Shown here: positions 8,012 through 57,737 of the stretch, piece after piece
Layout: the number at the start of each line of letters is the position of its first letter
Position numbering within the stretch: position 1 is the first letter of the stretch
Made by a program: the position numbers and the translations under genes
The notes under the pieces: model-generated
The model's input: the letters and a program-made list of their open reading frames with translations, nothing else
Told to the model about the DNA's origin: nothing
Database searches by the model: none
Source of the DNA: an uncultured Eubacteriales bacterium
GTDB lineage: Bacteria > Acidobacteriota > Aminicenantia > Aminicenantales > Aminicenantaceae
DNA length: 64,000 nucleotides
Assembly: GCA_964540205.1 (NCBI GenBank)
Contig: CAZIMJ010000163.1
Span: 2,847-66,846, forward strand
Direction of reading: 5' to 3'

Positions 8012-9730
8012 CTACTCGATATCGATCCCTTTATTTTTGAGCCAACTTGAAACATCGGCAAAGAAATCTTCAGGCTGAGTGAGAGAGACCGCATGACAGC
8101 TTTCGCTGTAGAGGGGAAATCTTATGACTCTCGTGTCGAGCCCCTGGATATCTGGAAATGCGGAAGGTCTGTAGTTCAGGATGATCTTTCCCGGACGTTC
8201 TTCTCCATCAGTTGATCGTTTCACATGCTGGACCGATTCCAAGATGTCCTCATGTTCGGCCAAACTTTGAGGAAGAGCAGCGGTATAAACGACAAGATCA
8301 TAGGCCGCGTTGGTGATGAAGGTCTCCACATAGGCAATATTCTGCAAAAACATTCGCCCGAATCGATTTTCATAATAGTGCACCTCATATCCTCGGACTT
8401 TTGCGACATTTAAGACATGAAACGCCCAGTTTGAGTGGTAGTTTGTAGAGAGAAAGTAGCGGTCCCATGGCTGGAGTATTCCGAAGACAGCAGTCATGTC
8501 TCCAGGCTCTTGCCTCACTGAATTGGCTTCCAGGCGTGCCGAGACCAGAAAATGGTACCTAGTAACGGGGTCTACATCATCATCAGGCATGAGGTCGAAT
8601 GCGTAATCAGTGTCGAATATCCGATAGGCGTTCGACCTCTCTGAAGCATACAGCTCGGGGATCGCAGTCACATCCACACCTGTAACTAAGCTCAAATTCT
8701 GGGTGAATCGAAGACGTGTTGCGGCATTCTGGAAGAATCCATCGAGCCAATCCCTGGGTTTCGGGTAGATATAGAGATCACGTCCGGCCACTTCGTTGAC
8801 AAAAGTGTAGGGATCTTCGTAAATATCGGGATCATAGGGGATCCCGACTTCCTCCCCGATCTGGTAGATAACAGATCCCGGACGATTAAACATCTCTTCT
8901 GTCACTTGCTGGTGGTAGCCAAAGGAACATGTCGGCTGAATCAGGATCTGATGGCCGAATTGACCAGCAACGACTTCCGATGGCACGACCTGTCCTCGAT
9001 ATTGGGGAAAAACGACATCATAATGGGCCTGGATCTCCTGGCTTAAGGATGGATCTTGAAACATTTCTCGTCCGTTCCCATATTCCGCATAATTGAGAAG
9101 GATATGGAGCATGGTCAGCGTGCGCGTCCCCCCATAGCTTTCTCCCACGATGATCACAGGATTATCCTGCAGTTGGGGATGATCTCCCAAAAAGCGCAGG
9201 ACGACACGGATAAAATCAGCCGCATCAAAAAACGAGTTGAAATTCTGAGAGTTAAATTCCCTGAATCTGGCATTATAATCGTTGACGAGCATCATCTGGT
9301 TGTAAGAGAATCCTGCTTGCCTTGCATCAATGTAAAGCAGATTTCCCATCGAAGTCCATGGAACATGATTGGGGATATAGTGATCTCCCCCACCGCTGTC
9401 GATGGTATTATCCAGGGTATACCGGCCTGTGTACATACTCATGAGGCCCGAGCTTGTGGCGCTCCCGGGTCCACCGTTAAAAAAGATAAACAGTGGCTTG
9501 TCTTCGTTCTGATTATCTGCGGCATGAAAGCTGTACCAAATACGTGCCTGGGACGACTGCAAATCCAATCGAGAGAAATAACTCCCGTAATGAAAATAGA
9601 ATGTTATGGGCTCGATGTCGATAAATCCTGCTTCGTTCTGGATGGTCAGGTTTTCCGAACAGCGGAGAGTACCGACATTTGATAGCCCAAATGCCAAAAG
9701 GCACAAAACAATAGAGAATAAACGTTTCAT
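8012..9730 (-). CDS. Secreted serine carboxypeptidase, peptidase family S10-like
   Basis: Signal peptide MKRLFSIVLCLLAFG (ATG at 9730). Motifs FFNGGPGSATSSG and GESYGG match the S10 signatures (NGGPGCSS / GESYAG). Confidence 0.6.
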   Translation of the reverse strand: MKRLFSIVLCLLAFGLSNVGTLRCSENLTIQNEAGFIDIEPITFYFHYGSYFSRLDLQSSQARIWYSFHAADNQNEDKPLFIFFNGGPGSATSSGLMSMYTGRYTLDNTIDSGGGDHYIPNHVPWTSMGNLLYIDARQAGFSYNQMMLVNDYNARFREFNSQNFNSFFDAADFIRVVLRFLGDHPQLQDNPVIIVGESYGGTRTLTMLHILLNYAEYGNGREMFQDPSLSQEIQAHYDVVFPQYRGQVVPSEVVAGQFGHQILIQPTCSFGYHQQVTEEMFNRPGSVIYQIGEEVGIPYDPDIYEDPYTFVNEVAGRDLYIYPKPRDWLDGFFQNAATRLRFTQNLSLVTGVDVTAIPELYASERSNAYRIFDTDYAFDLMPDDDVDPVTRYHFLVSARLEANSVRQEPGDMTAVFGILQPWDRYFLSTNYHSNWAFHVLNVAKVRGYEVHYYENRFGRMFLQNIAYVETFITNAAYDLVVYTAALPQSLAEHEDILESVQHVKRSTDGEERPGKIILNYRPSAFPDIQGLDTRVIRFPLYSESCHAVSLTQPEDFFADVSSWLKNKGIDIE

Positions 9731-9860
9731 TTGTCCTCCCCTAACGATTGGTATGCATAATTCTATATTAGGAGCAGCAAGTATTATGCCAGTTCTTTTC
9801 TCGGGGAAAGGAAGCGCCAATGAAGTGGAAGTGTAATATTTTTTAACAATTTCACAATGG

Positions 9861-9965
9861 GGGACGGGCCACACTAACATATTGATTATCGTACAATTAT
9901 GGTATTTTTTTTCTCAAATAATGCCTTAGAGGGCTCATTTCCATAGCAAAATGATAATTCTAACA
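9861..9965 (-). repeat. Conserved ~105-nt upstream element, copy 1 (leader/promoter region of the S10 peptidase operon)
   Basis: About 88% identical to 12541..12645 (gggacgggccacactaacatattgat…ccatagcaaaat…ttctaaca). Non-coding. Confidence 0.7.
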
Positions 9966-10012
9966 CGAACGGTTCATTTGAGGAATGGATCCTATATAAA
10001 AGGAAGAGACTT

Positions 10013-10071
10013 AAAAAGGGACAGGCTACTTTTTTAATTACCCCTATAAAAAGGTAGCCTGTCCCCTTTTT
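10013..10071 (-). terminator. Intrinsic terminator hairpin downstream of the FtsX-permease gene
   Basis: The sequence reads aaaaagggacaggctac … gtagcctgtcccctttttatt. It has a 12-bp GC-rich stem flanked by A and T runs, immediately after the stop codon at 10070. Confidence 0.75.
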
Positions 10072-12361
10072 ATTCGTAGCGGAGGGCTTCTGAAGGATTG
10101 GAGAGCGAGACCTTAGCCGTCTGGTATACGACAGATAGAACCGCAAAAATCAGTGTGAGTAGACCTGTCACAATAAAGATCATCACTGAAATGTCAGTGG
10201 TGTATGCCCAGGCCCAATCCAGGAACCGTTCCAAAAGAATATATGTCAATGGCCAGGCTATGATGTTGGCCACAACGACCATTTTAAGAAATCCAAAAAG
10301 CAGCAAGCGGATGATCTCCGGGACAGAAGCTCCCAGCACTTTTCTAACACCGATCTCTTTGGTCCTTTTACCGACTGTATAGAATGCTACGGCCACAAGT
10401 CCCAGGCAAGAGATAAAGATCGCAAATATCCCGATCGCCCCAAAAACGGAATACATGCCCTCGATGTATCTGTAATTGGACTCAAACCTGGCATCCAGTG
10501 TGGAATAGCTGAAGGGAATCTCCGGATGGAGAACGCTCCATTTTCCCCTTATGAAATCGACAATTCCAACAACGGGCACATCAGATGTTTTCACAAGTAG
10601 ATACCCGAGATCCTCTTCTTCCATGTAGATCACCGACGGGCCGATCTTCCAGTGGGCATCGTCAAAAAGAAAATCTCTGGCAACGCCGATGACCGATCCT
10701 CTCTTCCCTCCAATGCGCATCTCTTTCCCGATCGGGTTCTCCCACTGGAGCTGCCGCACTGCCGTTTCGTTCAGGATCAAACTCTCCGAATCATTATATT
10801 CCTCAGAGAAACTCCGTCCTTCACGTATTTCCATCTCCAGAAGCTCTATAAAATCGTGATCCACACCGTAGGCCGACATGGTCCACGCCTCATTTTCATC
10901 ATATCCTTCTGGAATAACCTGACTACTCGGATTCCAGTTCACAGGGACATAACTCGCTGCAGAGATCATCTGAACATCCGGGTGCTTCGCTAATTCTTTC
11001 TTGAGTAGATCCAGCTTTTCCCTGGCTTCAGGTGGGATCGTCACGGTGATAATCCTCTCTCTACTAAAACCAGGATCCATTTTTAAAAGAAAGTTCAACT
11101 GCTGGCTTATTCCCACAGTAAAAACGATCATGAGGATAGACAGAACAAATTGAGAAACCACAAGTATCTTGCGGAAGAATCCGCCCCTACGACCAATCTG
11201 AACATTCCCCTTGAGAACCTGGTCTGGCTGAAAAGAAGACAGAAAAAAGGCAGGATGACTGCCAGCGAACAAGCCCAGCAGCACAACCCCCCCTAAAAGC
11301 AGCAGGCACAGCAGAGGATAATTCCACAGAGTGAGATTCACTTCAGGATTGACATAGGTTCGAAAAGAAAGCTCTAAAAGATAATACAAACCGACCGCAA
11401 GAGGGATGGAAATGAGAGACAAAATCACCGACTCTCCCAAAAACTGTTTGATCAGTTGGATTCTCCTGGCACCGACAACTTTGCGCATTCCGATCTCTTT
11501 TGTCCGTTGCATGTACCGGGCGGTGGAAAGATTCATGAAGTTGATGCAGACAACCAGAAGCAGCGCAAACGCCATCGCGATCAGAAAATAGGAGACTGAA
11601 AAAGGAGTCCCCTCGATTAGGTGGGAACGTAGATCCAAGCTTTCCACCTGTCTGCGAAAGTTTAGAAGGGCGAGCAAAAAAAGGCGCTTCGGTGAATCAG
11701 GAGAATCGGAAAAATATTTTCCCACGAACGTGGGAAATCTTTCTTCTAACTGACCGGGTGAGACTCCCTCCGGGAGCTTTATGAAGGTTGTCTGACTGTT
11801 GACTGCCCAATCGTCCATCCAACCATAGAGTTGCCGGGCTGTTTCCATGGACAAAAGAAAATCATATTTAATGGTGGAATTATAAGGAGGATTTTCTATA
11901 ACTCCTGTAACTGTAACATCGATCTTATTGTCGAGCGACAGGATTTTCCCAAGAGGGTCTCCATCGCCAAAATACTTCACTGCCGTATCCTCAGACAAGA
12001 AGATGGAATTGGGAGCGTCTAAAGAGGGAGAAGGGATTCCTTTTTTCATGTCAAAAGCAAAAAAGGACAGGAAATTCGTGTCCACCAAAAGAATATTGGT
12101 TTCATAAAACACGTGGTCGCTGCTCCTCACGATTGTTTTTCGACAGCGTGAGATGCGTGTGGAATCCTTGATCTCCGGGTATTCGCTGACCAAAGCAGGG
12201 AGCATCGGAGCTGGGATTATAGCTGTGTTCTGTTCCCCTTTATTCCCATAGGGGAGAACTTGAACAACCAAAAAAATCCTGTCAGCATTTTTGTGAAAAG
12301 TATCATAGCTGAAATTGAATCCCGTATAGATGACAGAGAGCATAAATACGGCGATCCCCAA
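10070..12361 (-). CDS. FtsX/MacB-like ABC-transporter permease, paralog 1 (dual FtsX domains, large periplasmic domain)
   Basis: 763 aa from TTG at 12361. The C-terminus …SLSNPSEALRYE is typical of this family. The N-terminal helix KNYLTVALRNIFRFK is encoded in-frame upstream (to 12445) but begins with ATA rather than ATG. Confidence 0.75.
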   Translation of the reverse strand: MGIAVFMLSVIYTGFNFSYDTFHKNADRIFLVVQVLPYGNKGEQNTAIIPAPMLPALVSEYPEIKDSTRISRCRKTIVRSSDHVFYETNILLVDTNFLSFFAFDMKKGIPSPSLDAPNSIFLSEDTAVKYFGDGDPLGKILSLDNKIDVTVTGVIENPPYNSTIKYDFLLSMETARQLYGWMDDWAVNSQTTFIKLPEGVSPGQLEERFPTFVGKYFSDSPDSPKRLFLLALLNFRRQVESLDLRSHLIEGTPFSVSYFLIAMAFALLLVVCINFMNLSTARYMQRTKEIGMRKVVGARRIQLIKQFLGESVILSLISIPLAVGLYYLLELSFRTYVNPEVNLTLWNYPLLCLLLLGGVVLLGLFAGSHPAFFLSSFQPDQVLKGNVQIGRRGGFFRKILVVSQFVLSILMIVFTVGISQQLNFLLKMDPGFSRERIITVTIPPEAREKLDLLKKELAKHPDVQMISAASYVPVNWNPSSQVIPEGYDENEAWTMSAYGVDHDFIELLEMEIREGRSFSEEYNDSESLILNETAVRQLQWENPIGKEMRIGGKRGSVIGVARDFLFDDAHWKIGPSVIYMEEEDLGYLLVKTSDVPVVGIVDFIRGKWSVLHPEIPFSYSTLDARFESNYRYIEGMYSVFGAIGIFAIFISCLGLVAVAFYTVGKRTKEIGVRKVLGASVPEIIRLLLFGFLKMVVVANIIAWPLTYILLERFLDWAWAYTTDISVMIFIVTGLLTLIFAVLSVVYQTAKVSLSNPSEALRYE

Positions 12362-12540
12362 GGCCAGGCCAAAAATTATCAGAAGTGAATAAGCCTTAAA
12401 ACGAAAGATATTCCTCAGGGCGACTGTTAGATAGTTCTTAAATATTGATATATCTCCTCAGGGCAGAACGATCCATCTAAATATCCATACAGGAATTATG
12501 AGCGAATAGTTCCATGGAAAATAAAAATGGGAGGAAAAGA

Positions 12541-12645
12541 GGGACGGGCCACACTAACATATTGATAATCCTATAATTACGGTTTTTTTTGCCTCAAAAA
12601 ACGCCTTAGAAGCCTAATTTCCATAGCAAAATATAAATTCTAACA
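12541..12645 (-). repeat. Conserved ~105-nt upstream element, copy 2 (upstream of FtsX permease paralog 1)
   Basis: About 88% identical to 9861..9965. Confidence 0.7.
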
Positions 12646-12716
12646 ATAAATTAGATTATTTAAGTTTTATCGGCTAGAATGGAGAGGGAAAATGTAGTGT
12701 AGTTTCGTATCAGAGA

Positions 12717-13733
12717 ATGAAGGAAATTCCGACCTTTTTCACTCTTTTTTTAATCCTGTTCTTACACCTACCGACGTCACCTGCCTTCTCTCTGATAGAT
12801 ACACACGATAAATTAGGGGGAAACACGATGGAATCCAAGCCTCTCCTCCCGAAAACCGTAGGGATCTGGACTAGACCCGAATCACCCAACCTCATCAATG
12901 CTAAAAATATATTCGATTACATGGATGGAGCGGGCGAACTCTATCTCGCATATCGATTTGCCCATCTTGAATCCTATGAATATCAAGCGGAAACCCAAAA
13001 AGAGATCCTTGTTGAGTTGTATTATATGGAATCCTCGGACGATGCTTTTGGTTTGCTTTCCTTGGATTGGGGAGGAGAACCTTTGGAATTGCTCGTCTCG
13101 TCTTCAGAATATACTTCAACTGACAAACATCCGTGGCCAAGAGCCCTATATGGTGAAGGACTCCTACGCATCTGGTCGGATAATATCTATGCAAGAGTCA
13201 TGGCCACCCAGGAGACGCCAGAATCAAAACAGGCCGTTCTCGAGCTCGGAAGCACGATTGTCACAGGCCGAACCAATCCGCCTGCACCCGAACTGATGAA
13301 GGATCTCCCAAGCGCACTCCACCAAAACTGGATGCTTCGCAAAGATAGAGCCGCATATCTCCGCTCCCATCTGGTTCTAAACTCGCTGTACTATCTTGGC
13401 CACGAAAATATGCTCGACCTCAATCACACGACAGAAGCAGTTACAGCTCCATATGAAAAGATGGATTCATCAGAGAGCCGCTCCCGAATCCAGCTCCTTA
13501 CCGTGAAATACTCTAATCCTGAACAAGCAAAAAACGCACTCGCCCATTTTCACCGAGCCTATCTTCCGGACCATCCGCTCGAAAAGCGCTCAATATCCTC
13601 TGAAGTCTTGAAGAAAACTTTTCCCATTGAAGACGGATGGATAGGATATAAATTACATGAGAACACCCTCTCATTCATTTTTGAATGTCCCGACCAGGAA
13701 ACGGCCAGGACAATAATCAATCAAATCAAATAA
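12717..13733 (+). CDS. Hypothetical secreted protein
   Basis: 338-aa ORF with a hydrophobic N-terminus (FFTLFLILFLHL). No recognised domain. Confidence 0.35.
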   Translation: MKEIPTFFTLFLILFLHLPTSPAFSLIDTHDKLGGNTMESKPLLPKTVGIWTRPESPNLINAKNIFDYMDGAGELYLAYRFAHLESYEYQAETQKEILVELYYMESSDDAFGLLSLDWGGEPLELLVSSSEYTSTDKHPWPRALYGEGLLRIWSDNIYARVMATQETPESKQAVLELGSTIVTGRTNPPAPELMKDLPSALHQNWMLRKDRAAYLRSHLVLNSLYYLGHENMLDLNHTTEAVTAPYEKMDSSESRSRIQLLTVKYSNPEQAKNALAHFHRAYLPDHPLEKRSISSEVLKKTFPIEDGWIGYKLHENTLSFIFECPDQETARTIINQIK

Positions 13734-14642: not shown

Positions 14643-14830
14643 ACAACAATTTCCAGCAAAAAAACCAAACGGAGGAGCAAATCGTATAACATATCGTATG
14701 ACTCATATTCTTTTGTAATTCTTTAGCATTTCATTTATGATATTGCCTTTAAATTCGGTACTATAATTTGGTTCAAGAACTAAAAATGCTTTGTATCTAT
14801 TTTGCTCAATCCTACTAGGAGGTCATCTCC

Positions 14831-17800
14831 ATGAAGAAATGGTCAATTTTTTTCTTGTTTGGATTTGCGTTGATTTTGTTAGCCCATCCAGTATCGGCTG
14901 ACGAGGCCCGATTGCTACGGGAACCAACAGTCCACGCAGATCAGATCGCCTTTGTCTATGCCAATGACATCTGGATCGTCCCTAGATCCGGCGGTGATGC
15001 CCAGAGACTCACGACACACAACGGGACTGAGATAAGCCCTGTATTTTCCCCTGATGGAAAATATATCGCGTTTTCCGGCCAGTACGACGGAAACACCGAT
15101 GTCTATATAGTGCCTGCGGAAGGTGGCGAACCCAAACGTCTGACATACCACCCATATAGTGACATAGTCAGAGGGTGGACTCCCGACGGAAAGAGAGTCC
15201 TCTTTTCATCGGGACGAGATACAGTCCCCATCCCTTTCAATCGCTTGTGGACGATCTCCACCGATGGAGGGATGCCAGAGCCAATGCCCCTTCCCATGGC
15301 GGATAAAGGAGTGTACTCCCCCGATGGTAAACGGATGGCTTATGTCCGTTTGCCAAACGCAACAACCACATGGCGCCATTACAGGGGTGGCCAGACAAAT
15401 GCGGTCTGGCTTATCGATTTGGACGATTTCGACCTGGAAAAAATCCCCCGCGAAAATAGCAATGACACCGATCCCATTTGGATGGACGACGCCGTTTATT
15501 TCATCTCTGACCGCAACCACACAACTAATCTGTTCTCTTATGATGTGAACAGCAAAGAAGTGAAGCAGCACACATATCATGAAGACTATGACGTAAAGCG
15601 GGCTCGAGCAGGTGGAGGCGTTATCGTCTATGAACAGGCTGGCTACCTCCATATCTATGATCCTTCATCCGGACAATCCTCTCAGCTTCATGTGGAAATT
15701 CGAGGAGACCTTCAAGGACTAAGACCCCATTTTGCTAAGGTCTCTAATCTCATAAAAAGCGCGGACATCTCGCCCACGGGTGTAAGAGCTGTGATCGAAG
15801 CCCGTGGGGATATTTTCACCGTTCCCGCAAAAAAGGGCGATGCGCGCAACCTCACCCAAAGCCCTGGTGCCAACGACCGCTACCCCACTTGGGCGCCCGA
15901 TGGAACAAAGATCGCTTATTTCTCTGACGAAAGCGGCGAGTATGAACTGAAGATTATCGACCAAAAAGGACATATACCAGCCCGCAGCATCGCATTGGAG
16001 AATCCCTCTTTTTATTACCAGCCAGTTTGGTCGCCGGATTCGAAAAAAATCGCGTTTGCGGACAAGCGCCTCAATCTCTGGTTTATGGAAATGGCAAGCG
16101 GAAAGGTCACCAAGATCGACAAGGACACTTATGACCATCCTAACCGTTCTCTCGATCAAGTTTGGTCGCCGGATTCCAAATGGATCGCCTATTCCAAGCG
16201 GTTGGATAACTACATGCACGCCCTTTTTCTTTATTCCTTGGAGAAGGGAAAATCATTTCAGCTAACAGATGGGCTCAGCGATGCTATCTCCCCGGCATTT
16301 GATGCAGGAGGAAAGTATCTCTATTTTCTCGCTAGCACAAATTTCGCACTCAATACAGGATGGTTGGATATGTCATCATTTGAGCGGCCATTCACACGAG
16401 GAGTCTATCTGGTTGTTCTTAGCGCTGAAGACCCCTCCCCTCTTCTCCCTGAAAGTGATGAAGAGGAAGCTGAAAAGGACGAGGAAGATAAGGAAGAATC
16501 GAACAAGATCAAGCCAGAAAAAGAGGACAAGGGAAAACAAGAGGATAAAGCAAAGGATAAGAAAAAAGAAGTCAGTGTGCGCATCGATCTCAAAGGCATC
16601 GACCAGCGTATTCTGGCGGTAGACATCCCGCTTCGCAATTACAATCAACTGAAGACGGCATCGGAAGGAGTTTTTTTCTATGCAGAAGATATTCCCAATC
16701 AAGAGGGGGTGTCTCTTCATAAATACGACTTGAAAAAGCGGGAATCCACGCCATTTATGTCCGGAATTTCGGGCTATACGCTTTCCGCGGATGGAAAGAA
16801 GCTCTTTTATTCGGCCCAGAAGACATTCGGCATCGTCGACGCAACCAAAAAGTCCAAAGTGGGAGACGGCAAGATCAAGACAGAGGATCTCCAGATGCGC
16901 GTAGATCCAGTGGCTGAATGGCAACAGATCTATCACGAAGGCTGGCGCATCAATAGAGACTACCTCTATGATGTCAAAATGCACGGCGCAAATTGGGAGG
17001 CCATGTACGCGAAGTACAAACCCTTTCTGAAACATGTGGCGCATCGTTCCGATTTGAGCTACATCCTCCAGAACCTGATAGGAGAGCTGACCATCGGCCA
17101 CTCCTGGGCTGCCGGTGGAGCACTTCCCAGGGTTGATAGGGTTCCTGTGGGCCTGCTTGGAGCTGATTATGTGATCGAAAATGGATACTACAAAATCGCC
17201 AAAATATTCACAGGGGAGAATTGGAATCCTGACTTGAAGGCTCCACTAACTGCACCGGGACTGAATGTGAAAGAAGGGGATTTTATCCTGGAAGTGGACG
17301 GGCTCGAGCTTAAAGCTCCTTCAAATCTGTATCGGCTTTTCGAGGGGACAACAGAGAAGCAGACGACTATCAGAATCAATGACAAGCCCACGAAGGAAGG
17401 ATCCCGTCTCATCATAGTGGTTCCGATAGGCAGCGAATGGCAGTTGAGAACACGAAACTGGATCGAAGATAACCGCCGCAAGGTGGATAAAATGTCTAAT
17501 GGCCGCTTGGCTTATGTCTATTTGCCGAACACCGCTGAAGATGGCTATGTGAATTTCAACCGGTATTACTTTGCTCAGCAGGATAAGCAGGGCGCCGTCA
17601 TCGACGAGAGATTTAACGGAGGAGGATCAGCGGCCGACTATTTTGTGGACTTGATGTCAAGGCCGCTGATGAATTATTTCGCAACAAGAGATGGAAAAGA
17701 ATCTCCAACTCCCACAGCTCAAATTTTCGGCCCCAAAGTGATGCTCATCAATGAGTGGGCAGGTTCGGGAGGAGATGCACTCCCTTATTATTTTCGGTTC

Positions 17801-18115
17801 CGAAAGATCGGGCCGCTGATCGGGAAGACAACATGGGGTGGCTTGGTCGGCCATCACGGCGGAGTGGATTTGATCGATGGGGGTTTCATCTCATCGCCGA
17901 ATCTTGCATTCTATAACATCGAGGGAGAATGGGATGTGGAGAATGAGGGTGTGCCCCCGGATATTGATATCGAGATGACACCGGCGTTTGTAATCCAAGG
18001 GAGAGATCCGCAGTTGGAGAGAGCCGTGGAGGAGGCCCTTAGGCTCCTCGAACAAGACCCTTTTAAGCACACACCGCGTCCGTTACCCATCGACCGCGTC
18101 TCGAAGAAAAAATAG
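14831..18115 (+). CDS. Tricorn protease homolog (TolB-like beta-propellers + PDZ + S41 C-terminal peptidase domain)
   Basis: 1094 aa with RBS aggagg. Repeated WSPDGK/SPDSKKIAF propeller motifs. C-terminal S41-like region (…RFNGGGSAADYF…). K/E-rich low-complexity insert near residues 535-585. Confidence 0.7.
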   Translation: MKKWSIFFLFGFALILLAHPVSADEARLLREPTVHADQIAFVYANDIWIVPRSGGDAQRLTTHNGTEISPVFSPDGKYIAFSGQYDGNTDVYIVPAEGGEPKRLTYHPYSDIVRGWTPDGKRVLFSSGRDTVPIPFNRLWTISTDGGMPEPMPLPMADKGVYSPDGKRMAYVRLPNATTTWRHYRGGQTNAVWLIDLDDFDLEKIPRENSNDTDPIWMDDAVYFISDRNHTTNLFSYDVNSKEVKQHTYHEDYDVKRARAGGGVIVYEQAGYLHIYDPSSGQSSQLHVEIRGDLQGLRPHFAKVSNLIKSADISPTGVRAVIEARGDIFTVPAKKGDARNLTQSPGANDRYPTWAPDGTKIAYFSDESGEYELKIIDQKGHIPARSIALENPSFYYQPVWSPDSKKIAFADKRLNLWFMEMASGKVTKIDKDTYDHPNRSLDQVWSPDSKWIAYSKRLDNYMHALFLYSLEKGKSFQLTDGLSDAISPAFDAGGKYLYFLASTNFALNTGWLDMSSFERPFTRGVYLVVLSAEDPSPLLPESDEEEAEKDEEDKEESNKIKPEKEDKGKQEDKAKDKKKEVSVRIDLKGIDQRILAVDIPLRNYNQLKTASEGVFFYAEDIPNQEGVSLHKYDLKKRESTPFMSGISGYTLSADGKKLFYSAQKTFGIVDATKKSKVGDGKIKTEDLQMRVDPVAEWQQIYHEGWRINRDYLYDVKMHGANWEAMYAKYKPFLKHVAHRSDLSYILQNLIGELTIGHSWAAGGALPRVDRVPVGLLGADYVIENGYYKIAKIFTGENWNPDLKAPLTAPGLNVKEGDFILEVDGLELKAPSNLYRLFEGTTEKQTTIRINDKPTKEGSRLIIVVPIGSEWQLRTRNWIEDNRRKVDKMSNGRLAYVYLPNTAEDGYVNFNRYYFAQQDKQGAVIDERFNGGGSAADYFVDLMSRPLMNYFATRDGKESPTPTAQIFGPKVMLINEWAGSGGDALPYYFRFRKIGPLIGKTTWGGLVGHHGGVDLIDGGFISSPNLAFYNIEGEWDVENEGVPPDIDIEMTPAFVIQGRDPQLERAVEEALRLLEQDPFKHTPRPLPIDRVSKKK

Positions 18116-18175
18116 GATTTGTGGACTGTCACCTTTTTCCAGAGGTAAATATAAAAGTAGCCTGTCCTCTTTTAT

Positions 18176-23436: not shown

Positions 23437-26061
23437 TCATTCATACCGCAGCACATTGATGGGATTGGTAGATGCAACTTTTACCGTCTGTGAAGCGACT
23501 GTTCCCAGAGCCACTACGGCCGCCGCTCCTGTAGCGGCAATGAAAATCCAGGGAGACAGCGGTGCTTTATAGGCGAAATTCTGGAGCCACGTACTCATAG
23601 CAAAATAGGCGATCGGCCAGGCGAAAATACTGGAAATCAGCACCCACTTCGCAAACTCCTTGGAGAGGAGTACAAATATACGTGTACCCGATGCACCAAG
23701 CACTTTCCGGATCCCGATCTCTTTGGTTCGTTGCTCCGCTGTAAACGCAGACAAACCGAAAAGCCCTAAGCAGGCGATAGCCACAGCCAGCAAGCTGAAA
23801 ACATTAAACATGCTCCCTAGCCGGTACTCGGACTGGTATGCGCTGTCGAAGATATCGTCAAAGAAGCTGTAATCAATGGGATAATTCGGAGAGAATTTTC
23901 CCCATGTTTCTTTTAAGAAACCAAGAGTTCCAGGGATATTCCCTCCACGGATCTTGACAGACAAGTAATAAATATATCTCTGGTCCTTTCGATAGTAGAG
24001 ACACATGGGATCAATACCCCGATGGAGGGAGTGAAAATTAAAATTCTTCACAACACCCACAATCTGGCCCACATCACCCCACCAGATCTCAAAATCCCGT
24101 CCAACAGGCTGTTCCCATCCTAACGCGTTAACCAGGGATTCATTGAAGAGAAAGGAACTTTGGGCATCCGAGGGAAAATCTTTAGAAAAATTCCTCCCGT
24201 TCATAGTATCGATCCCATAGACATCCAAAAAATCCTCATCCACATAGCTCACATAAACATCAAAATAATCGAAATCCTCTGGAATACCCGGCCACTTCGG
24301 ACCCATCTGACTCTGTATATTGTTGGGAAGTGCATCCGTTGCGGTAGCTGCGATCACATTTGGATTGGCTTTTAATTCAGATTTGAAGGGATCAAGACTC
24401 TTTTTTATATCCGGGTCATGGAGCCTGATGACGACAATCTGGTCTTTCTCGTAGCCCACATCCTTGTTCTTGATAAAATCGAGCTGAAGCCGGACGACTA
24501 CAGCACCCACAATAAGCCCCACAGAAACTACAAATTGAAACACAACGAGGGCATTCCTCAGGCGCCTGCCCCCACGGCCGATTAGGATCTCCTTTTTTAA
24601 AACAAACGCCGGCCGGAAAGATGAGATCAAAAGGGCGGGATAGCTTCCGGCCAAGAAATTTATAAATCCCACAGCGATCAGCAGTCCAAAAAAAAGTGCA
24701 GGATTATTCAGCGAGGAAAAGCTCAAGTCTCGCTCTACAAAAGTGCTGAATGCGGGCAGCAAAATTTGAACAAGAACAAGGGCTAGAATCAACGCCAGAA
24801 TCAAAAAAATGAAGGATTCACCATAAAACTGCTTCACCAGATGATGGCGCAGAGCCCCCACCACTTTTCGGATCGCCACTTCTTTTCCGCGTTGGGTTGA
24901 GCAGGCCGTTGCCAGGTTCATGTAATTGATGCAGGCGATGATCAAAATGAGGAAAGCGATCGTAGAGAAAAGATAGATGTTCTTGATATTGTTGTTGGGT
25001 GCGAATTCCCCATCCAGGTCCGAATGGAGATGGATCGTAGTCATCGCCTGGAGGGATGGGCGACAGTAGCGCCGGCCGCCTGGCCATAGATCAGATTCGG
25101 CATACTTCCGATAGAGGCCTGGGATCTTCTGCTCCACAGCATGAGGGTCAGCGCCCTCATTTAATTGAACATATGAAACCGTCGCATGATTCTGCCATTT
25201 GGTTAAATCAAGTTCGGTGATTAACGCATAGGTTTGAAACGGGATGATGAGGTCCATGACAAAATGGGAATTCTGTGGCATGTTTTGGAGGATTCCAGTG
25301 ACCTTGAGATCGTAGGAATTCTCATAACGGATGACCTTACCCATGGGATTTTCCCGGCCAAAAATATGCGTGGCCATCTTTTGAGAGAGTACGATCGAGT
25401 AGGGATCCTTCAAAGCAGCATGGGACTGGCCTCTTTTCAGAGGAAGTGAAAACATCCGAAAGACCTGAGGCTCTGCAAAAATCACCTCGTTTTCTAAATA
25501 ATTCTGGTTGTCATAGTTTAAAAGAACATTTCTGTTGCGTGCAAACCGTGTGGCGAACTCCACTTCTGGAAATTCTTCCACCATTGTGGGGCCGAGCGGA
25601 GCCACTGTTCGTGTCATTGCCGTTTTCCCACCGTGAGTGTGCCTGGCAGGGAGTTCACTGGCCACGCGGTAGATACGGTGAGCATTTTCATGGTATTGAT
25701 CATAGCTCAGCTCAAACTGGACATAGATCATGATCAGAATGAAAAATGTCAGACCAATGGCAAGTCCGGCCACGTTGATGATGGTGAAGCTTTTTTGCCT
25801 TTTCATATGCCTTAAGGCTGTGATCAAATAATGCCTCGACATAATTGTGCCCCACTTTAACAGAAATTTGAGATAGGTGGGAATAGTTTTTAAGACCTGG
25901 ATTCGATACCAGCGTCTGGCTTTTGAAGATCCTCTCTCCTCCTCTATTTGATTAAACTCCTCCTCCAGATCACCAGCCCAAACAAACTCCTCATCATAGC
26001 GTCTCATGACCGAAAAGAGCCATCGGGCGAACCGGGGATGCTTTGCTTGCCCGGATTTCAT
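23437..26061 (-). CDS. FtsX/MacB-like ABC-transporter permease, paralog 2, with N-terminal cytoplasmic extension
   Basis: 874 aa with dual FtsX domains, ending …NPINVLRYE. Overlaps the upstream PadR gene by 4 nt (ATGA). Confidence 0.75.
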   Translation of the reverse strand: MKSGQAKHPRFARWLFSVMRRYDEEFVWAGDLEEEFNQIEEERGSSKARRWYRIQVLKTIPTYLKFLLKWGTIMSRHYLITALRHMKRQKSFTIINVAGLAIGLTFFILIMIYVQFELSYDQYHENAHRIYRVASELPARHTHGGKTAMTRTVAPLGPTMVEEFPEVEFATRFARNRNVLLNYDNQNYLENEVIFAEPQVFRMFSLPLKRGQSHAALKDPYSIVLSQKMATHIFGRENPMGKVIRYENSYDLKVTGILQNMPQNSHFVMDLIIPFQTYALITELDLTKWQNHATVSYVQLNEGADPHAVEQKIPGLYRKYAESDLWPGGRRYCRPSLQAMTTIHLHSDLDGEFAPNNNIKNIYLFSTIAFLILIIACINYMNLATACSTQRGKEVAIRKVVGALRHHLVKQFYGESFIFLILALILALVLVQILLPAFSTFVERDLSFSSLNNPALFFGLLIAVGFINFLAGSYPALLISSFRPAFVLKKEILIGRGGRRLRNALVVFQFVVSVGLIVGAVVVRLQLDFIKNKDVGYEKDQIVVIRLHDPDIKKSLDPFKSELKANPNVIAATATDALPNNIQSQMGPKWPGIPEDFDYFDVYVSYVDEDFLDVYGIDTMNGRNFSKDFPSDAQSSFLFNESLVNALGWEQPVGRDFEIWWGDVGQIVGVVKNFNFHSLHRGIDPMCLYYRKDQRYIYYLSVKIRGGNIPGTLGFLKETWGKFSPNYPIDYSFFDDIFDSAYQSEYRLGSMFNVFSLLAVAIACLGLFGLSAFTAEQRTKEIGIRKVLGASGTRIFVLLSKEFAKWVLISSIFAWPIAYFAMSTWLQNFAYKAPLSPWIFIAATGAAAVVALGTVASQTVKVASTNPINVLRYE

Positions 26062-26393
26062 GATAACTCGACCTTGCCTGCAGCAAGTTCAGGGATACCA
26101 TCCCAGATTTTTTTGTGAAGTTCCCGAGCGTGATGGAGGGCCTTAAGTCCCCTCGACGTCAGTGTGTAATAGATCTTACCTCGTCCCCCTCTTTGGGGAG
26201 TCGGTTTCCCATGCCTCTTCCGGACATAACCCTTACGGAGAAGTTGATCGAGTGTGTTGTAGAGTGTGCCATAGATAATATCTTTTTTTGTGATTTCTGA
26301 GACCGTTCGCCGGATGGAGACGCCGTAAGCTTCCTCCTTGAGCCGGAAGATGGTCGTCAAGATAATTTCCTCTAATACTGTGATCTCTTTCAT
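26058..26393 (-). CDS. PadR-family transcriptional regulator
   Basis: 111 aa. Winged-helix segment YGTLYNTLDQLLRKGYV. Translationally coupled to the permease. Confidence 0.8.
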   Translation of the reverse strand: MKEITVLEEIILTTIFRLKEEAYGVSIRRTVSEITKKDIIYGTLYNTLDQLLRKGYVRKRHGKPTPQRGGRGKIYYTLTSRGLKALHHARELHKKIWDGIPELAAGKVELS

Positions 26394-30873: not shown

Positions 30874-31437
30874 TCAGGATGACTCCTTATTGTAAATTCC
30901 CTTTTCAAACAGTCCCTGTCTTAAATCAGCAAGCCCACGAGAGAGTAAATTTCTGGTTTTCCCGTCACTCCAATTAAAAAATTCTGATATCTCATTCAGA
31001 TCCATCCCTATAAGGTAGAGTTTGAGAACCTGCCGGCGAGATTCAATCAACGTGTCGACTGCCTTTCTGATGAGTTCTATCAACTCTTTCTTTTCATACT
31101 GCCTATCCGGATTATGCATTAGTACCTGAGGGATGTCTTCGATTGAGACAGTGCTTTCCCTTTGTAGCAACAGTTGTTTCTTCTGTAAAAATATTTTTTT
31201 CATAACTCTACAGGTCGTCGTGTATGTCACCTTCCATATATAAGAGCCGAAATTATGGATTTCCTTCTCACTTTTAAGGATTTCCCTCCAGATTTTTATT
31301 TTGACTTCCTGTTCGATATCGTCCATATCGGATAGATCTATCTGGGGAGAAGTTTTACGAATCGCAGACCGTATGAGCTGTGAGAAATGCTCGATAGTGA
31401 TTTCAATTTCTGAAATTTTTTCTGCCGACTTTGCCAT
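30874..31437 (-). CDS. ECF-subfamily RNA polymerase sigma-70 factor
   Basis: 187 aa with sigma-70 region 2 and region 4 similarity. Followed by the anti-sigma gene. Confidence 0.7.
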   Translation of the reverse strand: MAKSAEKISEIEITIEHFSQLIRSAIRKTSPQIDLSDMDDIEQEVKIKIWREILKSEKEIHNFGSYIWKVTYTTTCRVMKKIFLQKKQLLLQRESTVSIEDIPQVLMHNPDRQYEKKELIELIRKAVDTLIESRRQVLKLYLIGMDLNEISEFFNWSDGKTRNLLSRGLADLRQGLFEKGIYNKESS

Positions 31438-47506: not shown

Positions 47507-47564
47507 AAAAAAATGGGACTGTCCCCTTTTTTTGTACGGTCCTTTCTCCGAAAGGACCGTAAAG
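47507..47564 (-). terminator. Intrinsic terminator (gggac/gtccc with A/T runs) followed by REP-like palindrome copy
   Basis: The terminator is aaaaaaatgggactgtccccttttttt. It is followed by gtacggtcctttctccgaaaggaccgtaaag, which has a 10-bp perfect stem. Confidence 0.7.
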
Positions 47565-50592: not shown

Positions 50593-50622
50593 ATCTCATA
50601 GAAAAGCACCCTGTCCCCTTTT

Positions 50623-53048: not shown

Positions 53049-55475
53049 TTATTCGTAGCGGAGGGAATCGATGGGATTGGCGATGGCTGCTTTTATGGAC
53101 TGATAACTTACTGTGAAGAGAGCGACTCCGATCGTAACGATCCCCGATAAAATAAAAGCCCAAATGTCGAGATCTATCCTATAAGCAAAGTTCTGAAGCC
53201 AACTGTTCATGGCAAAATAAGCCAAAGGCCATGCAATCACAGCGGCTATCAAAACCCATTTTGTGAACTCTTTGGTCAGAAGCACAACGATGTTGCCCAC
53301 TGTGGCTCCGACGACTTTCCGTACACCGATCTCCTTGGTTCGGATCTCGGCGGAATACGCAGACAGCCCGAAAAGACCCAAACAAGAAATAAATATCGCC
53401 AACAGGGAAAATGCCTGAAAAATGTTGTTCACTCTGTCTTCTCCCTCATAGAGACGGTTGAGGTGCTCGTCCACAAACGTGTACATGAACAGCGTCTCCG
53501 GGGCAATCTCTTTGGCTTTCATCTCAATAAACTCCAAAACATCCGCCGTGTTGTTTCCCTGAAATTTGACCAACAGATATCCTGCCCAAGCCGGATTGTA
53601 CTCCAGGACCAAGGGTTCGATGATGTTATGCAGGGAGGCAAAATTAAAATCTTTAACAACACCCACGATCTCAGCATTGGTCCCTCGGAAATTGGATCCC
53701 ATTTTGCCCACAGGCTCTTTCAATTCGAGGGCTTGAACCGCTGTCTCGTTGAGGATGAATTCCGGTTTATACTCAGCTCGCCGTGTGAAATTTCTGCCAT
53801 CTTCCAATTGGATATTGAGGATCTCCAGAAAATTCTCATCAACACGCAAGTACCTCATGCTGGGGAGATCTTTATCCTCAGGCGTTCCTTCAGGTCTGAG
53901 GTTCTCTACACTGAATCTGTCGCCGGGCAGGGTGGAAATAACTGTAACCCCTGTTATGGCCGGATTCCTCAAAAATTCTGTCTTCAAGACCTCTGTGTTC
54001 TGAACGATATTGCGGCGGAGGCCACCATACAAGTCGATGGCCACAAGCTTGTCCTTCTCGAATCCAAGGTTCATATTCTGGAATAGATCCAGTTGCTTAT
54101 ATATTGTGATCGTACTGAAAATCATAAATATAGAAACTATAAATTGAAAGATCACCAGTCCCTTTCTAACCATCGTGACTGAAGATCCGGAATCTCTCAA
54201 GTTTTTGAGCGTATTTACCGGCTTGAATTTCGACATGAAGAAAGCCGGGTACACACCGGCCAAAGTCCCCACAAGAACAATGATCAAGACTAGAACACCG
54301 ATGTTATCTGGAGTCAAAATACGCACAAAGCTCAGGTCTTTTCCAGCCAGCTGATTGTAAAACGGAAGCGTGATGTCAAAAATCATTAGAGCAAACACCG
54401 CTGCGATCAAAGACATGACGTACGACTCGCCCAAAAACTGCTTCTGCAATTGATGACGATATGCTCCCAAGACTTTCCTGACACCGACCTCCTTCATCCG
54501 TTTGAATGCCTGAGCAGTTGCAATGTTGATAAAATTCACTCCTGCGATCAGCAGTATAAACAGAGCCACACAGGCAAATACATAGACATATATGATGTTG
54601 CTGTTGGGTCCCATCTCTTGTTCCAGGCGAGAAAAAAGATGAATATCCGTGATGGGTTGAAGATGCTGTTTTGTCCGAGCCAAGATCTCTTCCCGTGTCC
54701 CAAATTCTTGGTAAAACCGGGCCGTAAAATCTGGCATCTTTGCCCTTACGGCATCGAGACTTTGGTTCTCGCGAATGAGCACATAGGTATAAAACCAAGC
54801 CCAACCACGGCTGACCATCCAATCTTCAGCACCGCGTTCCTTCATTGTTTTGTACATTGTTGACATCGAAACGAGATAATCAAACTGCCAATGCGTGTTG
54901 AAAGGGACGTCCTCGACGACGCCTGTCACTTTATAAAGGGCTTGCGCACTGTCGTCAGAGATCGTTTTCCCCAGAGGATCTTCATCCCCGAAATACCTTT
55001 TTGCCATGCTTTTGGTCAAAACTACAGTGTTGACATCTACCAGGGCGTTTTTTGGATTTCCTCTGATAAATTTGAGATCAAAAACTTCGATGGTTGCAGG
55101 ATCAGAAAAAAATCCTCCTTTTTCTTCAAAACGCCTGGGTTCGCCAACTTTGGGAGTGTAGTTCAACACATTGGAGTACCTGTAGGCCAACCGAGTTGCG
55201 ACTTGGATCTCCGGGATCTCTTCTCCGATCTCAAGAGCGTGTAGGGGAGAGACCACGGCCCAGTGGAGAGATCCCTCCTCCAGGCCTTCATTGGTGACCC
55301 TGTATATGCGGTCTGCCTTAGGCCAGCTCCGATCATAGCTCAGCTCTTCTTTCACATGGAAAAGGATGAGCAAACTGCATGCGATCCCTAAGGCAAGACC
55401 GGTAATGTTGAGGATACTGTTCAGCTTTTGTTTGAAAATATTCCTTATGGCGATTTTAAAATAATTCCTTAGCAT
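53049..55475 (-). CDS. FtsX/MacB-like ABC-transporter permease, paralog 4 (tandem with paralog 3)
   Basis: 808 aa starting MLRNYFKIAIRNIFKQK. C-terminus …PIDSLRYE. Its 3' terminal ~28 nt and downstream terminator half are identical to paralog 3. Confidence 0.75.
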   Translation of the reverse strand: MLRNYFKIAIRNIFKQKLNSILNITGLALGIACSLLILFHVKEELSYDRSWPKADRIYRVTNEGLEEGSLHWAVVSPLHALEIGEEIPEIQVATRLAYRYSNVLNYTPKVGEPRRFEEKGGFFSDPATIEVFDLKFIRGNPKNALVDVNTVVLTKSMAKRYFGDEDPLGKTISDDSAQALYKVTGVVEDVPFNTHWQFDYLVSMSTMYKTMKERGAEDWMVSRGWAWFYTYVLIRENQSLDAVRAKMPDFTARFYQEFGTREEILARTKQHLQPITDIHLFSRLEQEMGPNSNIIYVYVFACVALFILLIAGVNFINIATAQAFKRMKEVGVRKVLGAYRHQLQKQFLGESYVMSLIAAVFALMIFDITLPFYNQLAGKDLSFVRILTPDNIGVLVLIIVLVGTLAGVYPAFFMSKFKPVNTLKNLRDSGSSVTMVRKGLVIFQFIVSIFMIFSTITIYKQLDLFQNMNLGFEKDKLVAIDLYGGLRRNIVQNTEVLKTEFLRNPAITGVTVISTLPGDRFSVENLRPEGTPEDKDLPSMRYLRVDENFLEILNIQLEDGRNFTRRAEYKPEFILNETAVQALELKEPVGKMGSNFRGTNAEIVGVVKDFNFASLHNIIEPLVLEYNPAWAGYLLVKFQGNNTADVLEFIEMKAKEIAPETLFMYTFVDEHLNRLYEGEDRVNNIFQAFSLLAIFISCLGLFGLSAYSAEIRTKEIGVRKVVGATVGNIVVLLTKEFTKWVLIAAVIAWPLAYFAMNSWLQNFAYRIDLDIWAFILSGIVTIGVALFTVSYQSIKAAIANPIDSLRYE

Positions 55476-57672: not shown

Positions 57673-57737
57673 TTTAGGAAAATGGGTACAGGCACCTCAT
57701 TCCATATCGGAATATCGGAGCCAGTCCCCATTTCGAT

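What the first reader, a model, noticed from the sequence alone, without database searches (positions are those of the whole stretch)
9861..12645. ~105-nt conserved non-coding element upstream of two adjacent minus-strand operons
Two copies at about 88% identity lie at 9861-9965 and 12541-12645. Each sits 100-180 nt 5' of a gene start: the S10 peptidase+OMP operon and FtsX permease paralogue 1. Both are in the same orientation and non-coding. Each has an internal A/U-rich stem-loop (…cgttttttgaggcaaaaaaaacc…) and the conserved block ttgctatggaaat. It could be a shared promoter or UP element, an operator for a common regulator, or a cis-acting RNA leader.
Basis: seen in the sequence. Interest (0 to 1): 0.55.

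Follow-up and report, generated by a model that had tools for sequence, protein, structure and literature searches.

The report
Duplicated upstream gene-control DNA element
A conserved 106-bp stretch of non-coding DNA sits in two copies in front of neighbouring genes in uncultured Aminicenantaceae bacteria. It looks like a protein-binding control region, not an RNA, and recombination between the copies has deleted the gene between them in some relatives.

Summary
The repeat is real. Windows 9861-9965 and 12541-12645 are direct copies, 90/105 identical (85.7%, not 88%), with sharp ends and no third copy in the window.

It is not a recent local accident. Both copies sit at the same positions in at least two other species-level relatives. 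One copy always adjoins the DUF6599 gene. Its identity between genomes is 72-94%, against 41-67% at four-fold degenerate sites, so it is under purifying selection.

RNA readings fail. There is no Rfam hit, folding is no better than shuffles, the consensus fold is -4.6 kcal/mol, and there is no conserved small ORF.

The flanking genes have their own, different core promoters outside the element:
- a perfect, conserved sigma-54 -24/-12 site before the S10 peptidase;
- an ECF-like GGAACT-N16-CGTATG before FtsX;
- a TAGAAT -10 before DUF6599.

The element carries a 38-bp imperfect palindrome, a T-run/A-run, back-to-back -10-like hexamers, an IHF-consensus match and a GC box. I read it as a DNA-level operator or enhancer cassette, copied to the peptidase operon. 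This is inferred, not shown.

Unequal recombination between the copies deleted FtsX twice independently. A third relative lost FtsX by a different deletion.

This is modest novelty: a new member of a known kind.

The parts
9859..9964 (-). Element copy E1, upstream of the S10 peptidase operon and downstream of the FtsX terminator hairpin
   Evidence: Orthologous copies are in L011 8523-8629 and L014 6830-6935. No E1 is present in the outgroup L024.
12539..12644 (-). Element copy E2, in the divergent region between FtsX (-) and DUF6599 (+); the older copy
   Evidence: A copy with the same right flank adjoins DUF6599 in L003, L010, L011, L014, L018, L019 and L024.
9926..9963 (.). 38-bp imperfect palindrome in E1: TTAGAA-N5-ATTTT-N6-GAAAT-N5-CTCTAA
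   Evidence: RNAalifold and pair counts: arms are nearly invariant, 91-98% of cells are paired, and two pair positions show symmetric double changes. It is centred about -180 from the predicted sigma-54 start site.
12606..12643 (.). The same palindrome in E2
   Evidence: It is centred about -63 from the start site predicted for the DUF6599 TAGAAT -10, and about -145 from the FtsX ECF-like promoter.
9888..9897 (.). Back-to-back -10-like hexamers in E1: TACGAT on the minus strand (9893->9888) and TACAAT on the plus strand (9892-9897)
   Evidence: TTGAGA-18-TACGAT. In alignment A2 the plus-strand hexamer is TAYAAT or TATGAT in all 11 copies, and T1, A2, A5 and T6 are invariant.
12568..12577 (.). 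Back-to-back -10-like hexamers in E2: TAGGAT on the minus strand and TATAAT on the plus strand
9875..9887 (-). Match to the E. coli IHF consensus WATCAANNNNTTR in E1 (AATCAATATGTTA)
   Evidence: 6 matches in the window against 4.3 expected, 2 of them in E. The consensus columns TCA..TT are invariant in A1; in the 11-sequence A2, TCA and one T stay invariant.
12555..12567 (-). IHF-consensus match in E2 (TATCAATATGTTA)
9860..9872 (-). GC box GTGGCCCGTCCCC at the gene-proximal end of E1; the same box in E2 is at 12541-12552
   Evidence: Columns G93, G95, G96, C97, C98, G100, C102 and C104 are invariant. The box resembles one arm of the local terminator hairpin family.
9776..9791 (-). Sigma-54 type -24/-12 promoter TGGCATAATACTTGCT of the S10 peptidase operon, outside E
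   Evidence: It is the only exact match to TGGCAYN5TTGCW in the window. It is conserved in L010, L011, L014, L019 and L020, and is moved in front of an inserted gene in L023; also in L024.
9833..9851 (-). Conserved AT-rich block AATTGTTAAAAAATATTAC between E1 and the sigma-54 promoter
   Evidence: It is conserved in W, L011, L014, L019 and L024 while its flanks vary.
12485..12513 (-). ECF-sigma-like promoter of FtsX: GGAACT-N16-TGTATGG, outside E
   Evidence: The two blocks are conserved with a constant 16-nt spacer of variable sequence in L011, L014 and L018 (CGTATGG). L017, which has no E, has GGAACC-N16-CGTCTG.
10008..10075 (.). Bidirectional terminator-like hairpin after FtsX, between FtsX and E1
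   Evidence: Inverted repeat I1. It belongs to a hairpin family found at gene ends. A stub of it survives in L024.
10070..12445 (-). FtsX/MacB-type double permease, the gene flanked by E1 and E2; ATA at the start-codon position
   Evidence: Pfam. Orthologues are 791 aa and begin MFKNYL. The gene is absent in L003, L010, L019 and L024.
8012..9730 (-). S10 serine carboxypeptidase gene, first gene of the operon downstream of E1
   Evidence: Pfam. Orthologues are 572 aa.
12675..12680 (+). -10-like TAGAAT of the DUF6599-DUF362 operon, just outside E2
   Evidence: It is conserved in all relatives. The DUF6599 CDS is 12717-13733.

Best explanation
The element (E) acts as double-stranded DNA. It is a compact transcription-control cassette that binds one or more regulatory proteins. 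It is not an RNA and not the genes' main core promoter. It consists of a 38-bp imperfect palindrome (a likely operator or upstream activating site), a T-run/A-run that could bend DNA, a TAAT..TA..A core with -10-like hexamers on both strands, a match to the IHF consensus, and an invariant GC box.

The older copy (E2) is the central part of the divergent control region between FtsX and the DUF6599-DUF362 operon. A copy (E1) was later placed in front of the S10 peptidase operon. There it lies 94 to 199 bp upstream of the start site predicted from a conserved sigma-54 promoter. That is the position and layout of an enhancer (activator site plus bend) for a sigma-54 activator. The likely effect is that the peptidase operon and the FtsX/DUF6599 pair respond to the same DNA-binding regulator.

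As a side effect, the two direct copies are substrates for unequal homologous recombination, which has deleted FtsX in two lineages.

Shown: the repeat, its conservation and selection, the separate core-promoter motifs, the lack of RNA signal, and the deletion junctions. Inferred: protein binding, enhancer function, and co-regulation.
For: Both copies are conserved at orthologous sites in L011-13 and L014-16, and E2 in L018. Identity of E between genomes is 72-94%, against 41-67% at four-fold sites of FtsX, the peptidase and DUF362. Conservation drops at the element's gene-proximal end, where spacers vary in length. The palindrome arms and the motifs listed are invariant or nearly so in 11 copies. 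A perfect sigma-54 -24/-12 site lies 45 nt before the peptidase ATG. It is conserved in relatives whose peptidase is down to 66% identical. An NtrC-type sigma-54 activator and a histidine kinase lie 2.8 kb from the peptidase orthologue in L023. FtsX has its own ECF-like promoter, also present in a relative without E, so E is not simply the core promoter. RNA tests are negative. E1 has no plus-strand gene to serve, yet it is conserved, so it most likely serves the peptidase operon.
Against: No regulator has been identified and no binding has been shown. No sigma-54 promoter follows E2, so a pure sigma-54 enhancer role cannot explain both copies. The outgroup L024 has the sigma-54 promoter without E1, so E1 is not essential to that promoter. 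The IHF-consensus match is not statistically unusual in the window (6 found against 4.3 expected), and I did not check whether the organism has IHF or rpoN. The palindrome arms hardly vary, so symmetry is supported by conservation, not by many co-changes. E holds -10-like hexamers, so it may itself be a promoter. The whole intergenic regions are fairly conserved at this divergence, so E stands out less than one would like.
Confidence: 0.55

Rival explanations
1. E itself contains a sigma-70 type promoter, possibly bidirectional. On the minus strand this would be TTGAGG-18-TAGGAT, reading towards FtsX or the peptidase and acting in tandem with the sigma-54 or ECF-like promoters. On the plus strand a TAYAAT -10 would read towards DUF6599. 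The GC/IHF-like box would then be an operator at about +1 to +25.
For: One search reports TTGAGA-18-TACGAT in E1. In A2 the plus-strand hexamer is TATAAT (6 copies), TACAAT (4) or TATGAT (1), with T1, A2, A5 and T6 invariant. The minus-strand hexamer keeps T1, A2 and A5 in all 11 copies. L004 shows a similar order, TTGACC-N19-TATAAT, followed by the CAATATGTTAGTGTGGCCCC box.
Against: The minus-strand promoter is weak: 8-9 of 12 positions, an 18-19 nt spacer, the key last T replaced by A in 2 of 11 copies, and the -35 TTG kept in only 6 of 11. It is not detected in E2 by the scan. The plus-strand -10 has no acceptable -35 (CCACAC or GCCACA). Each gene already has a conserved core promoter closer to its start. 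For E1, a plus-strand promoter would only run into the terminator hairpin.
Confidence: 0.25
2. E is transcribed and works as RNA. It would be either a cis-acting 5' leader of the minus-strand genes or, on the plus strand, the leader of DUF6599 (from E2) plus a roughly 175-nt small RNA ending at the 10008-10075 hairpin (from E1).
For: The first 40 nt can form a hairpin with two double changes that keep pairing. A hairpin with a T-run follows E1 on the plus strand.
Against: No Rfam family matches, even at E<=10. Minimum free energies are no better than shuffles on either strand (z = 0.0, +1.5, -0.4, +0.4). The consensus fold is only -4.6 kcal/mol with a covariation term of -0.43. Paired columns are mostly invariant, and only 3 pairs show double changes, against 2.8 in shuffles. 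Wobble patterns favour neither strand. Similarity between the copies ends about 25 nt after the only plausible minus-strand start, leaving no room for a structured shared leader. The sequence between E1 and the hairpin is not conserved in L014.
Confidence: 0.08
3. E is a mobile or recombination element, such as a MITE-like repeat or a site for a site-specific recombinase that inserts and excises the FtsX cassette.
For: E has sharp boundaries. FtsX plus one E is present or absent between genomes exactly at E. A MAG contig breaks inside E.
Against: E has no terminal inverted repeats and no target-site duplication. Only the locus-linked copies turn up in all GTDB species genomes, JGI metagenomes, viral contigs, plasmids and phages. 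No recombinase gene is nearby. The two deletion junctions lie at different places inside E: columns 23-29 in L003/L010 and the 3' part in L019. That indicates homologous, not site-specific, recombination. L024 keeps the last ~40 nt of FtsX, so FtsX was ancestral and was lost, not inserted.
Confidence: 0.05
4. E1 is a functionless by-product of an old local duplication, kept similar to E2 by gene conversion and not by selection.
For: In the window E1 and E2 are 85% identical, against 72-74% in L011 and L014. W_E2 shares the block TATGGAAAT with the E1 type, so some conversion is possible. L024 manages without E1.
Against: E1 copies of different genomes share E1-type signature bases, and E2 copies share E2-type ones, which is an orthologous pattern. 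E1 is 78-94% identical between genomes whose four-fold sites are 52-67% identical. Single-copy genomes, where conversion is impossible, keep E at 72-78% identity, against 41-59% at four-fold sites.
Confidence: 0.07

Closest known systems
Enhancer-type upstream regions of sigma-54 promoters (activator-binding inverted repeats plus an IHF site or intrinsic bend, as at glnAp2/NtrC, nifH/NifA, Pu/XylR; from textbook knowledge)
   Same: E1 lies 94-199 bp upstream of a conserved, perfect -24/-12 promoter. It carries an inverted repeat, an A/T tract and a match to the IHF consensus. A relative has an NtrC-type activator near the orthologous operon.
   Different: The second copy, E2, has no sigma-54 promoter on either side. 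The activator, rpoN and IHF are not identified in this organism. The palindrome (TTAGAA-N5-ATTTT-N6-AAAAT-N5-TTCTAA) matches no activator site I know. The outgroup has the promoter without E1.
Divergent or bidirectional promoter-operator regions shared by two back-to-back operons
   Same: E2 is the core of a divergent intergenic region. It has back-to-back -10-like hexamers and a palindrome at about -63 from one side's predicted start.
   Different: A 106-bp central piece has been copied to a second, non-divergent site. Each flanking gene also has its own promoter motif of another sigma class.
Cis-regulatory RNA leaders and riboswitches (Rfam)
   Same: Similar size (about 105 nt), a position upstream of genes, and two copies before neighbouring genes.
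   Different: No Rfam match, no thermodynamic signal and no meaningful covariation.
Direct-repeat-mediated gene deletion (unequal homologous recombination between short repeats)
   Same: FtsX plus one repeat is lost precisely between E1 and E2, leaving one chimeric E, with different crossover points in two lineages.
   Different: Here the repeats are conserved regulatory DNA, not IS elements, rRNA operons or REP sequences.

Membership tests
Any Rfam RNA family (riboswitch, leader, sRNA) | Covariance-model score at or above the family's gathering threshold | tested here: not met
   The whole window gave 0 hits at gathering thresholds. Region 9400-13000 at E<=10 gave nothing overlapping E.
Structured cis-regulatory RNA (novel) | Folding energy below shuffled controls, and base pairs supported by compensatory changes | tested here: not met
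   z-scores are 0.0, +1.5, -0.4 and +0.4. The consensus fold is -4.6 kcal/mol. Three pairs have double changes, against 2.8 in shuffles. The sample is only 11 sequences.
Sigma-54 enhancer (UAS) region | A -24/-12 promoter (GG-N10-GC, TGGCAC-N5-TTGCW) downstream at about 80-200 bp | tested here: inconclusive
   Met for E1: TGGCATAATACTTGCT at 9776-9791, conserved in 7 relatives. Not met for E2: no GG-N10-GC site on either strand of the FtsX/DUF6599 region in four genomes.
Sigma-54 enhancer (UAS) region | Inverted-repeat binding site(s) for an enhancer-binding protein | tested here: inconclusive
   A conserved 38-bp imperfect palindrome is present, but no known activator motif was recognised and no binding data exist.
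Sigma-54 enhancer (UAS) region | IHF site or intrinsic bend between the UAS and the promoter | tested here: inconclusive
   WATCAANNNNTTR matches in both copies, with its core columns largely invariant. However, there are 6 matches in the window against 4.3 expected, and IHF genes were not looked for.
Sigma-54 enhancer (UAS) region | The genome encodes RpoN and a cognate activator | not testable with these tools
   Only a 64-kb window is available and it holds no activator gene. An NtrC-type activator lies near the peptidase orthologue in L023.
Sigma-70 type promoter | -35 and -10 hexamers with a 16-18 nt spacer, conserved at the key positions | tested here: inconclusive
   On the minus strand, 9/12 in E1, below threshold in E2, and the last T is lost in 2 of 11 copies. 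On the plus strand, the -10 TAYAAT is invariant at its key positions but has no -35.
MITE / IS-derived repeat | Terminal inverted repeats, target-site duplication, and many dispersed copies | tested here: not met
   The ends are GTTAGA... and ...GTCCCC, with no TIR and no TSD. There are two copies in 64 kb. Only locus-linked copies were found in the public collections.
Site-specific recombination site (att/attC/dif-like) | Crossover at one fixed core, and an associated recombinase | tested here: not met
   The crossovers lie at different positions in L003/L010 and in L019. No recombinase is in the window or in related loci.
Small protein-coding ORF / upstream ORF | A conserved start codon and reading frame | tested here: not met
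   The 15-codon ORF seen in both window copies has no ATG in L011_E2 or L014_E1 and is frameshifted in L003. The ATG in the GC-box region is AGG or ATC in three copies (read).

The most novel reading that the evidence does not exclude
E is a self-contained, portable control cassette. It could be a bidirectional promoter-operator unit that can be copied as a block to put a new operon under an existing regulator. In that reading, the plus-strand side of E1 makes a roughly 175-nt RNA that shares its 5' end with the DUF6599 leader. A possible distant relative upstream of an AbiEi antitoxin gene in another metagenome (L004) would fit a module that moves between unrelated genes.
Probability: 0.1. 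Interest if true: 0.55.

Novelty: new member of a known kind. Interest (0 to 1): 0.3.

Why it matters
Almost nothing is known about gene regulation in Aminicenantes, an uncultured, protein-degrading lineage that is common in sediments and subsurface habitats. This locus gives concrete, testable sequence motifs:
- a conserved regulatory cassette;
- a sigma-54 promoter in front of a secreted S10 peptidase operon;
- an ECF-type promoter in front of an orphan FtsX permease.

It also gives a clear small-scale example of two processes. One is regulatory rewiring by copying a 106-bp control region. The other is recurrent gene loss driven by recombination between such copies. This is useful to people annotating these genomes, but it does not change any general picture.

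Tried and rejected
- **Rfam.** Scans at gathering thresholds and at E<=10 found nothing.
- **RNA folding.** Single-sequence folds of both strands are no better than shuffles.
- **Consensus structure.** RNAalifold and pair counting show only a weak palindrome, mostly invariant.
- **More copies in the window.** None found, including upstream of the three other FtsX paralogues.
- **The window's ECF sigma gene.** Its own upstream region (30874-31437) lacks GGAAC-N16-CGTA, so it is not linked to the FtsX promoter.
- **Sigma-54 promoter near E2.** None found.
- **TTAGA boxes.** Deeper relatives L020 and L023 show no common pattern upstream of their sigma-54 promoters.
- **L024 segment in place of E1.** No similarity to E1: local score 14, against a shuffle mean of 14.9.
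- **Exact look-ups of window proteins.** These failed because of start-codon choice.
- **Two orthologous contigs** had no retrievable DNA.
- **Plasmid, phage and viral collections.** No hit.
- **Literature.** Nothing for Aminicenantes with sigma-54, or with peptidase and FtsX.
- **The Desulfospira hit and most metagenome 18-mer hits** match only the seed and are treated as chance.
- **Conserved small ORF.** Rejected by inspecting the alignments.
Full report
**1. The observation**

The two copies exist as described. The repeat finder reports a single long direct-repeat family, 9856-9965 and 12536-12645, at 85% over 110 nt. A 26-nt block, ATCAATATGTTAGTGTGGCCCGTCCC on the minus strand, is identical in both copies. 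With up to three mismatches it occurs nowhere else in the window, and no shuffle gave a match. A profile search without filters finds no third copy in the 64 kb. I call the copies E1 (9859-9964) and E2 (12539-12644).

**2. Gene context**

Pfam gives this layout on the minus strand:
- an S10 serine carboxypeptidase, 8012-9730, followed by a 365-aa protein of unknown function;
- E1;
- a terminator-like hairpin, 10008-10075;
- an FtsX/MacB-type double permease, 10070-12445;
- E2.

On the plus strand, DUF6599 (12717-13733), DUF362 and a tricorn protease follow. The organism is a member of Candidatus Aminicenantaceae.

**3. Related genomes**

- An exact 18-mer scan of all GTDB species genomes hit only two contigs of one Aminicenantaceae MAG, plus one chance hit.
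- A second 18-mer scan of JGI metagenomes found a near-identical contig (L007), one FtsX-less relative (L010) and seed-only hits.
- Orthologues of FtsX and of the peptidase were found and their contigs fetched.
- L011-13 and L014-16 have the same gene order and both E copies at the same positions. Their FtsX proteins are 89% and 83% identical to the window's. L018 has E2 before its contig ends.
- E1 copies share E1-type bases and E2 copies share E2-type bases across genomes. The duplication therefore predates these species.
- Every genome examined has a copy directly next to the DUF6599 control region.

**4. Selection**

| Comparison | Identity between genomes |
|---|---|
| E copies | 72-94% |
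| Four-fold degenerate sites of FtsX, peptidase and DUF362 | 41-67% |

E evolves more slowly than neutral sites. This holds even in genomes with a single copy, where gene conversion cannot act. Some conversion in the window's lineage is possible: E1 and E2 are 85% identical here, against 72-74% elsewhere. It is not required, because both window copies are simply close to the family consensus.

**5. Loss of FtsX**

- **L003/L010** are the closest relatives, at 90-95% DNA identity. They have peptidase, one E, then DUF6599, with no FtsX. Their E is E2-like in columns 8-23 and E1-like from column 29 onward.
- **L019** also has one E. It is E2-type through most of its length and is joined directly to the left flank of E1.
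- Different crossover points indicate two independent unequal homologous recombinations, not site-specific excision.
- **L024**, the most distant relative, has an E2-type copy, the last ~40 nt of FtsX and a stub of the hairpin, but nothing resembling E1.
- So FtsX is ancestral and was lost three times. E1 is the younger copy, or L024 lost it.
- In the window itself FtsX has ATA where all orthologues have ATG, confirmed in the independent assembly L007. Its -10-like CGT is TGT. The gene may be decaying here too.

**6. Not an RNA**

- There are no Rfam hits.
- Folding energies of both strands of both copies are no better than shuffles.
- The consensus fold is -4.6 kcal/mol.
- In 11 sequences the proposed pairs are mostly invariant, and double changes are no more frequent than in shuffles.
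- Small ORFs in E are not conserved.

**7. Core promoters lie outside E**

- **Peptidase.** A perfect sigma-54 site, TGGCATAATACTTGCT, sits at 9776-9791. It is the only exact match in the window. It is conserved in L010, L011, L014, L019 and L024, and in relatives whose peptidase is 66-67% identical (L020; L023, where it sits before an inserted gene). L023 carries a histidine kinase and an NtrC-type sigma-54 activator 2.8 kb away.
- **FtsX.** GGAACT-N16-(C/T)GTATGG is conserved, with constant spacing and a variable spacer sequence. It recurs as GGAACC-N16-CGTCTG in L017, which has no E. From general knowledge this resembles ECF-sigma promoters.
- **DUF6599.** A TAGAAT -10 is conserved.

**8. 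Anatomy of E (minus orientation, alignment A2)**

| Columns | Feature |
|---|---|
| 2-39 | Palindrome TTAGAR-N5-ATTTT-N6-RAAAT-N5-YTCTAA |
| 44-60 | T-run/A-run |
| 66-77 | TAAT..TA..A, which reads as TAnnAT on the minus strand and TAYAAT on the plus strand |
| 78-90 | WATCAANNNNTTR, the E. coli IHF consensus (two of the six window matches; 4.3 expected) |
| 93-105 | GC box GTGGCCCGTCCCC |

Positions are given relative to start sites predicted from the motifs:
- E1 spans -94 to -199 from the sigma-54 start, with the palindrome at about -180.
- The E2 palindrome is at about -63 from the DUF6599 start and about -145 from the FtsX start.

**9. Interpretation**

The best fit is a DNA-level operator or enhancer cassette bound by an unidentified regulator. 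It was copied from the divergent FtsX/DUF6599 region to the peptidase operon, where its layout matches the upstream region of a sigma-54 promoter.

Weak points:
- no sigma-54 promoter lies next to E2;
- L024 works without E1;
- no regulator is identified;
- the IHF match is not significant on its own.

RNA, mobile-element, recombination-site and neutral-remnant readings are each contradicted by specific tests (see the rivals).

**10. Verdict**

This is a real, selected, lineage-restricted cis-regulatory DNA element: a new member of a known kind. Interest is modest.

Noticed in passing
window 12443-12445 (-), and 12485-12491: The FtsX permease has ATA where all orthologues have the ATG start (MFKNYL...). 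An independent assembly (L007) shows the same base. Its ECF-like -10 reads TGTATG instead of CGTATG. The gene may be losing expression in this lineage, and it is deleted outright in three relatives.
   Followed up: partly
window 10014-10069, 18124-18172, 47517-47529, 50609-50621, 57681-57732; L003 2367-2425: A family of similar terminator-like hairpins (AAAGGGGACAGGC...GCCTGTCCCCTTT) lies at gene ends: 9 matches to one arm against 1.6 expected. The GC box of E (GGGGACGGGCCAC) resembles one arm of it.
   Followed up: partly
window 14643-18153: The tricorn protease gene with its upstream region is present here and in L011 and L015, and L024 keeps a fragment. It is absent between DUF362 and the sulfatase gene in L003, L018 and L019. 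This is a second gene-sized presence/absence difference in the same neighbourhood.
   Followed up: no
window 9731-9880: The public annotation of the S10 peptidase (622 aa, P0121-P0124) starts at an ATG inside E1. Orthologues are 572 aa, and a GGAGG ribosome-binding site plus a signal peptide indicate a start at 9730. The annotated N-terminal 50 residues are probably not translated.
   Followed up: partly
window 55575-55590 (-): A sigma-54-like site, TGGTATGATTATTGCA (one mismatch), lies about 100 nt upstream of another FtsX paralogue (53049-55475). No E-like sequence is nearby.
   Followed up: no
window 26060-26392 (-): A small ORF lies directly upstream of the FtsX paralogue 23437-26061; by eye it looks like a PadR-family regulator (not confirmed with Pfam). 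This is a different regulatory arrangement from the E-linked paralogue.
   Followed up: no
L004 1440-1575 (JGI Ga0307990_1028008): An unrelated contig carries CAATATGTTAGTGTGGCCCC and, about 60-110 nt upstream of it, a GAAA..CCTTAGAAGCGTTTTTTGACCCCAAAAAACGC stretch. That stretch scores 6.9 bits against the E profile, against a maximum of 3.1 in 300 shuffles. It lies upstream of an AbiEi antitoxin gene and could be a distant relative of E or chance.
   Followed up: partly
L011 8630-8650; L018 5945-5990; L002 2795-2820: Short tandem duplications sit exactly at the gene-proximal boundary of E in several relatives: ccattgtgg twice, tggcccgtc[t/c]ccatatgga twice, and cacaatgg twice. This suggests slippage-prone sequence there.
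   Followed up: no
L001 1576 and 7704 (Desulfospira joergensenii): The 19-mer GTTAGTGTGGCCCGTCCCC from E matches exactly at 7704. A second copy at 1576, one base different, lies in the same 8 kb of an unrelated deltaproteobacterium, within a longer local repeat of that genome. I treated this as a chance match to E.
   Followed up: no
L002 and L003 (same MAG, JBATYS01): One bin holds two versions of the peptidase upstream region. L002 ends inside E and is 95% identical to the window. L003 lacks FtsX and is 90-92% identical. Strains with and without FtsX may therefore coexist in that sample.
   Followed up: no
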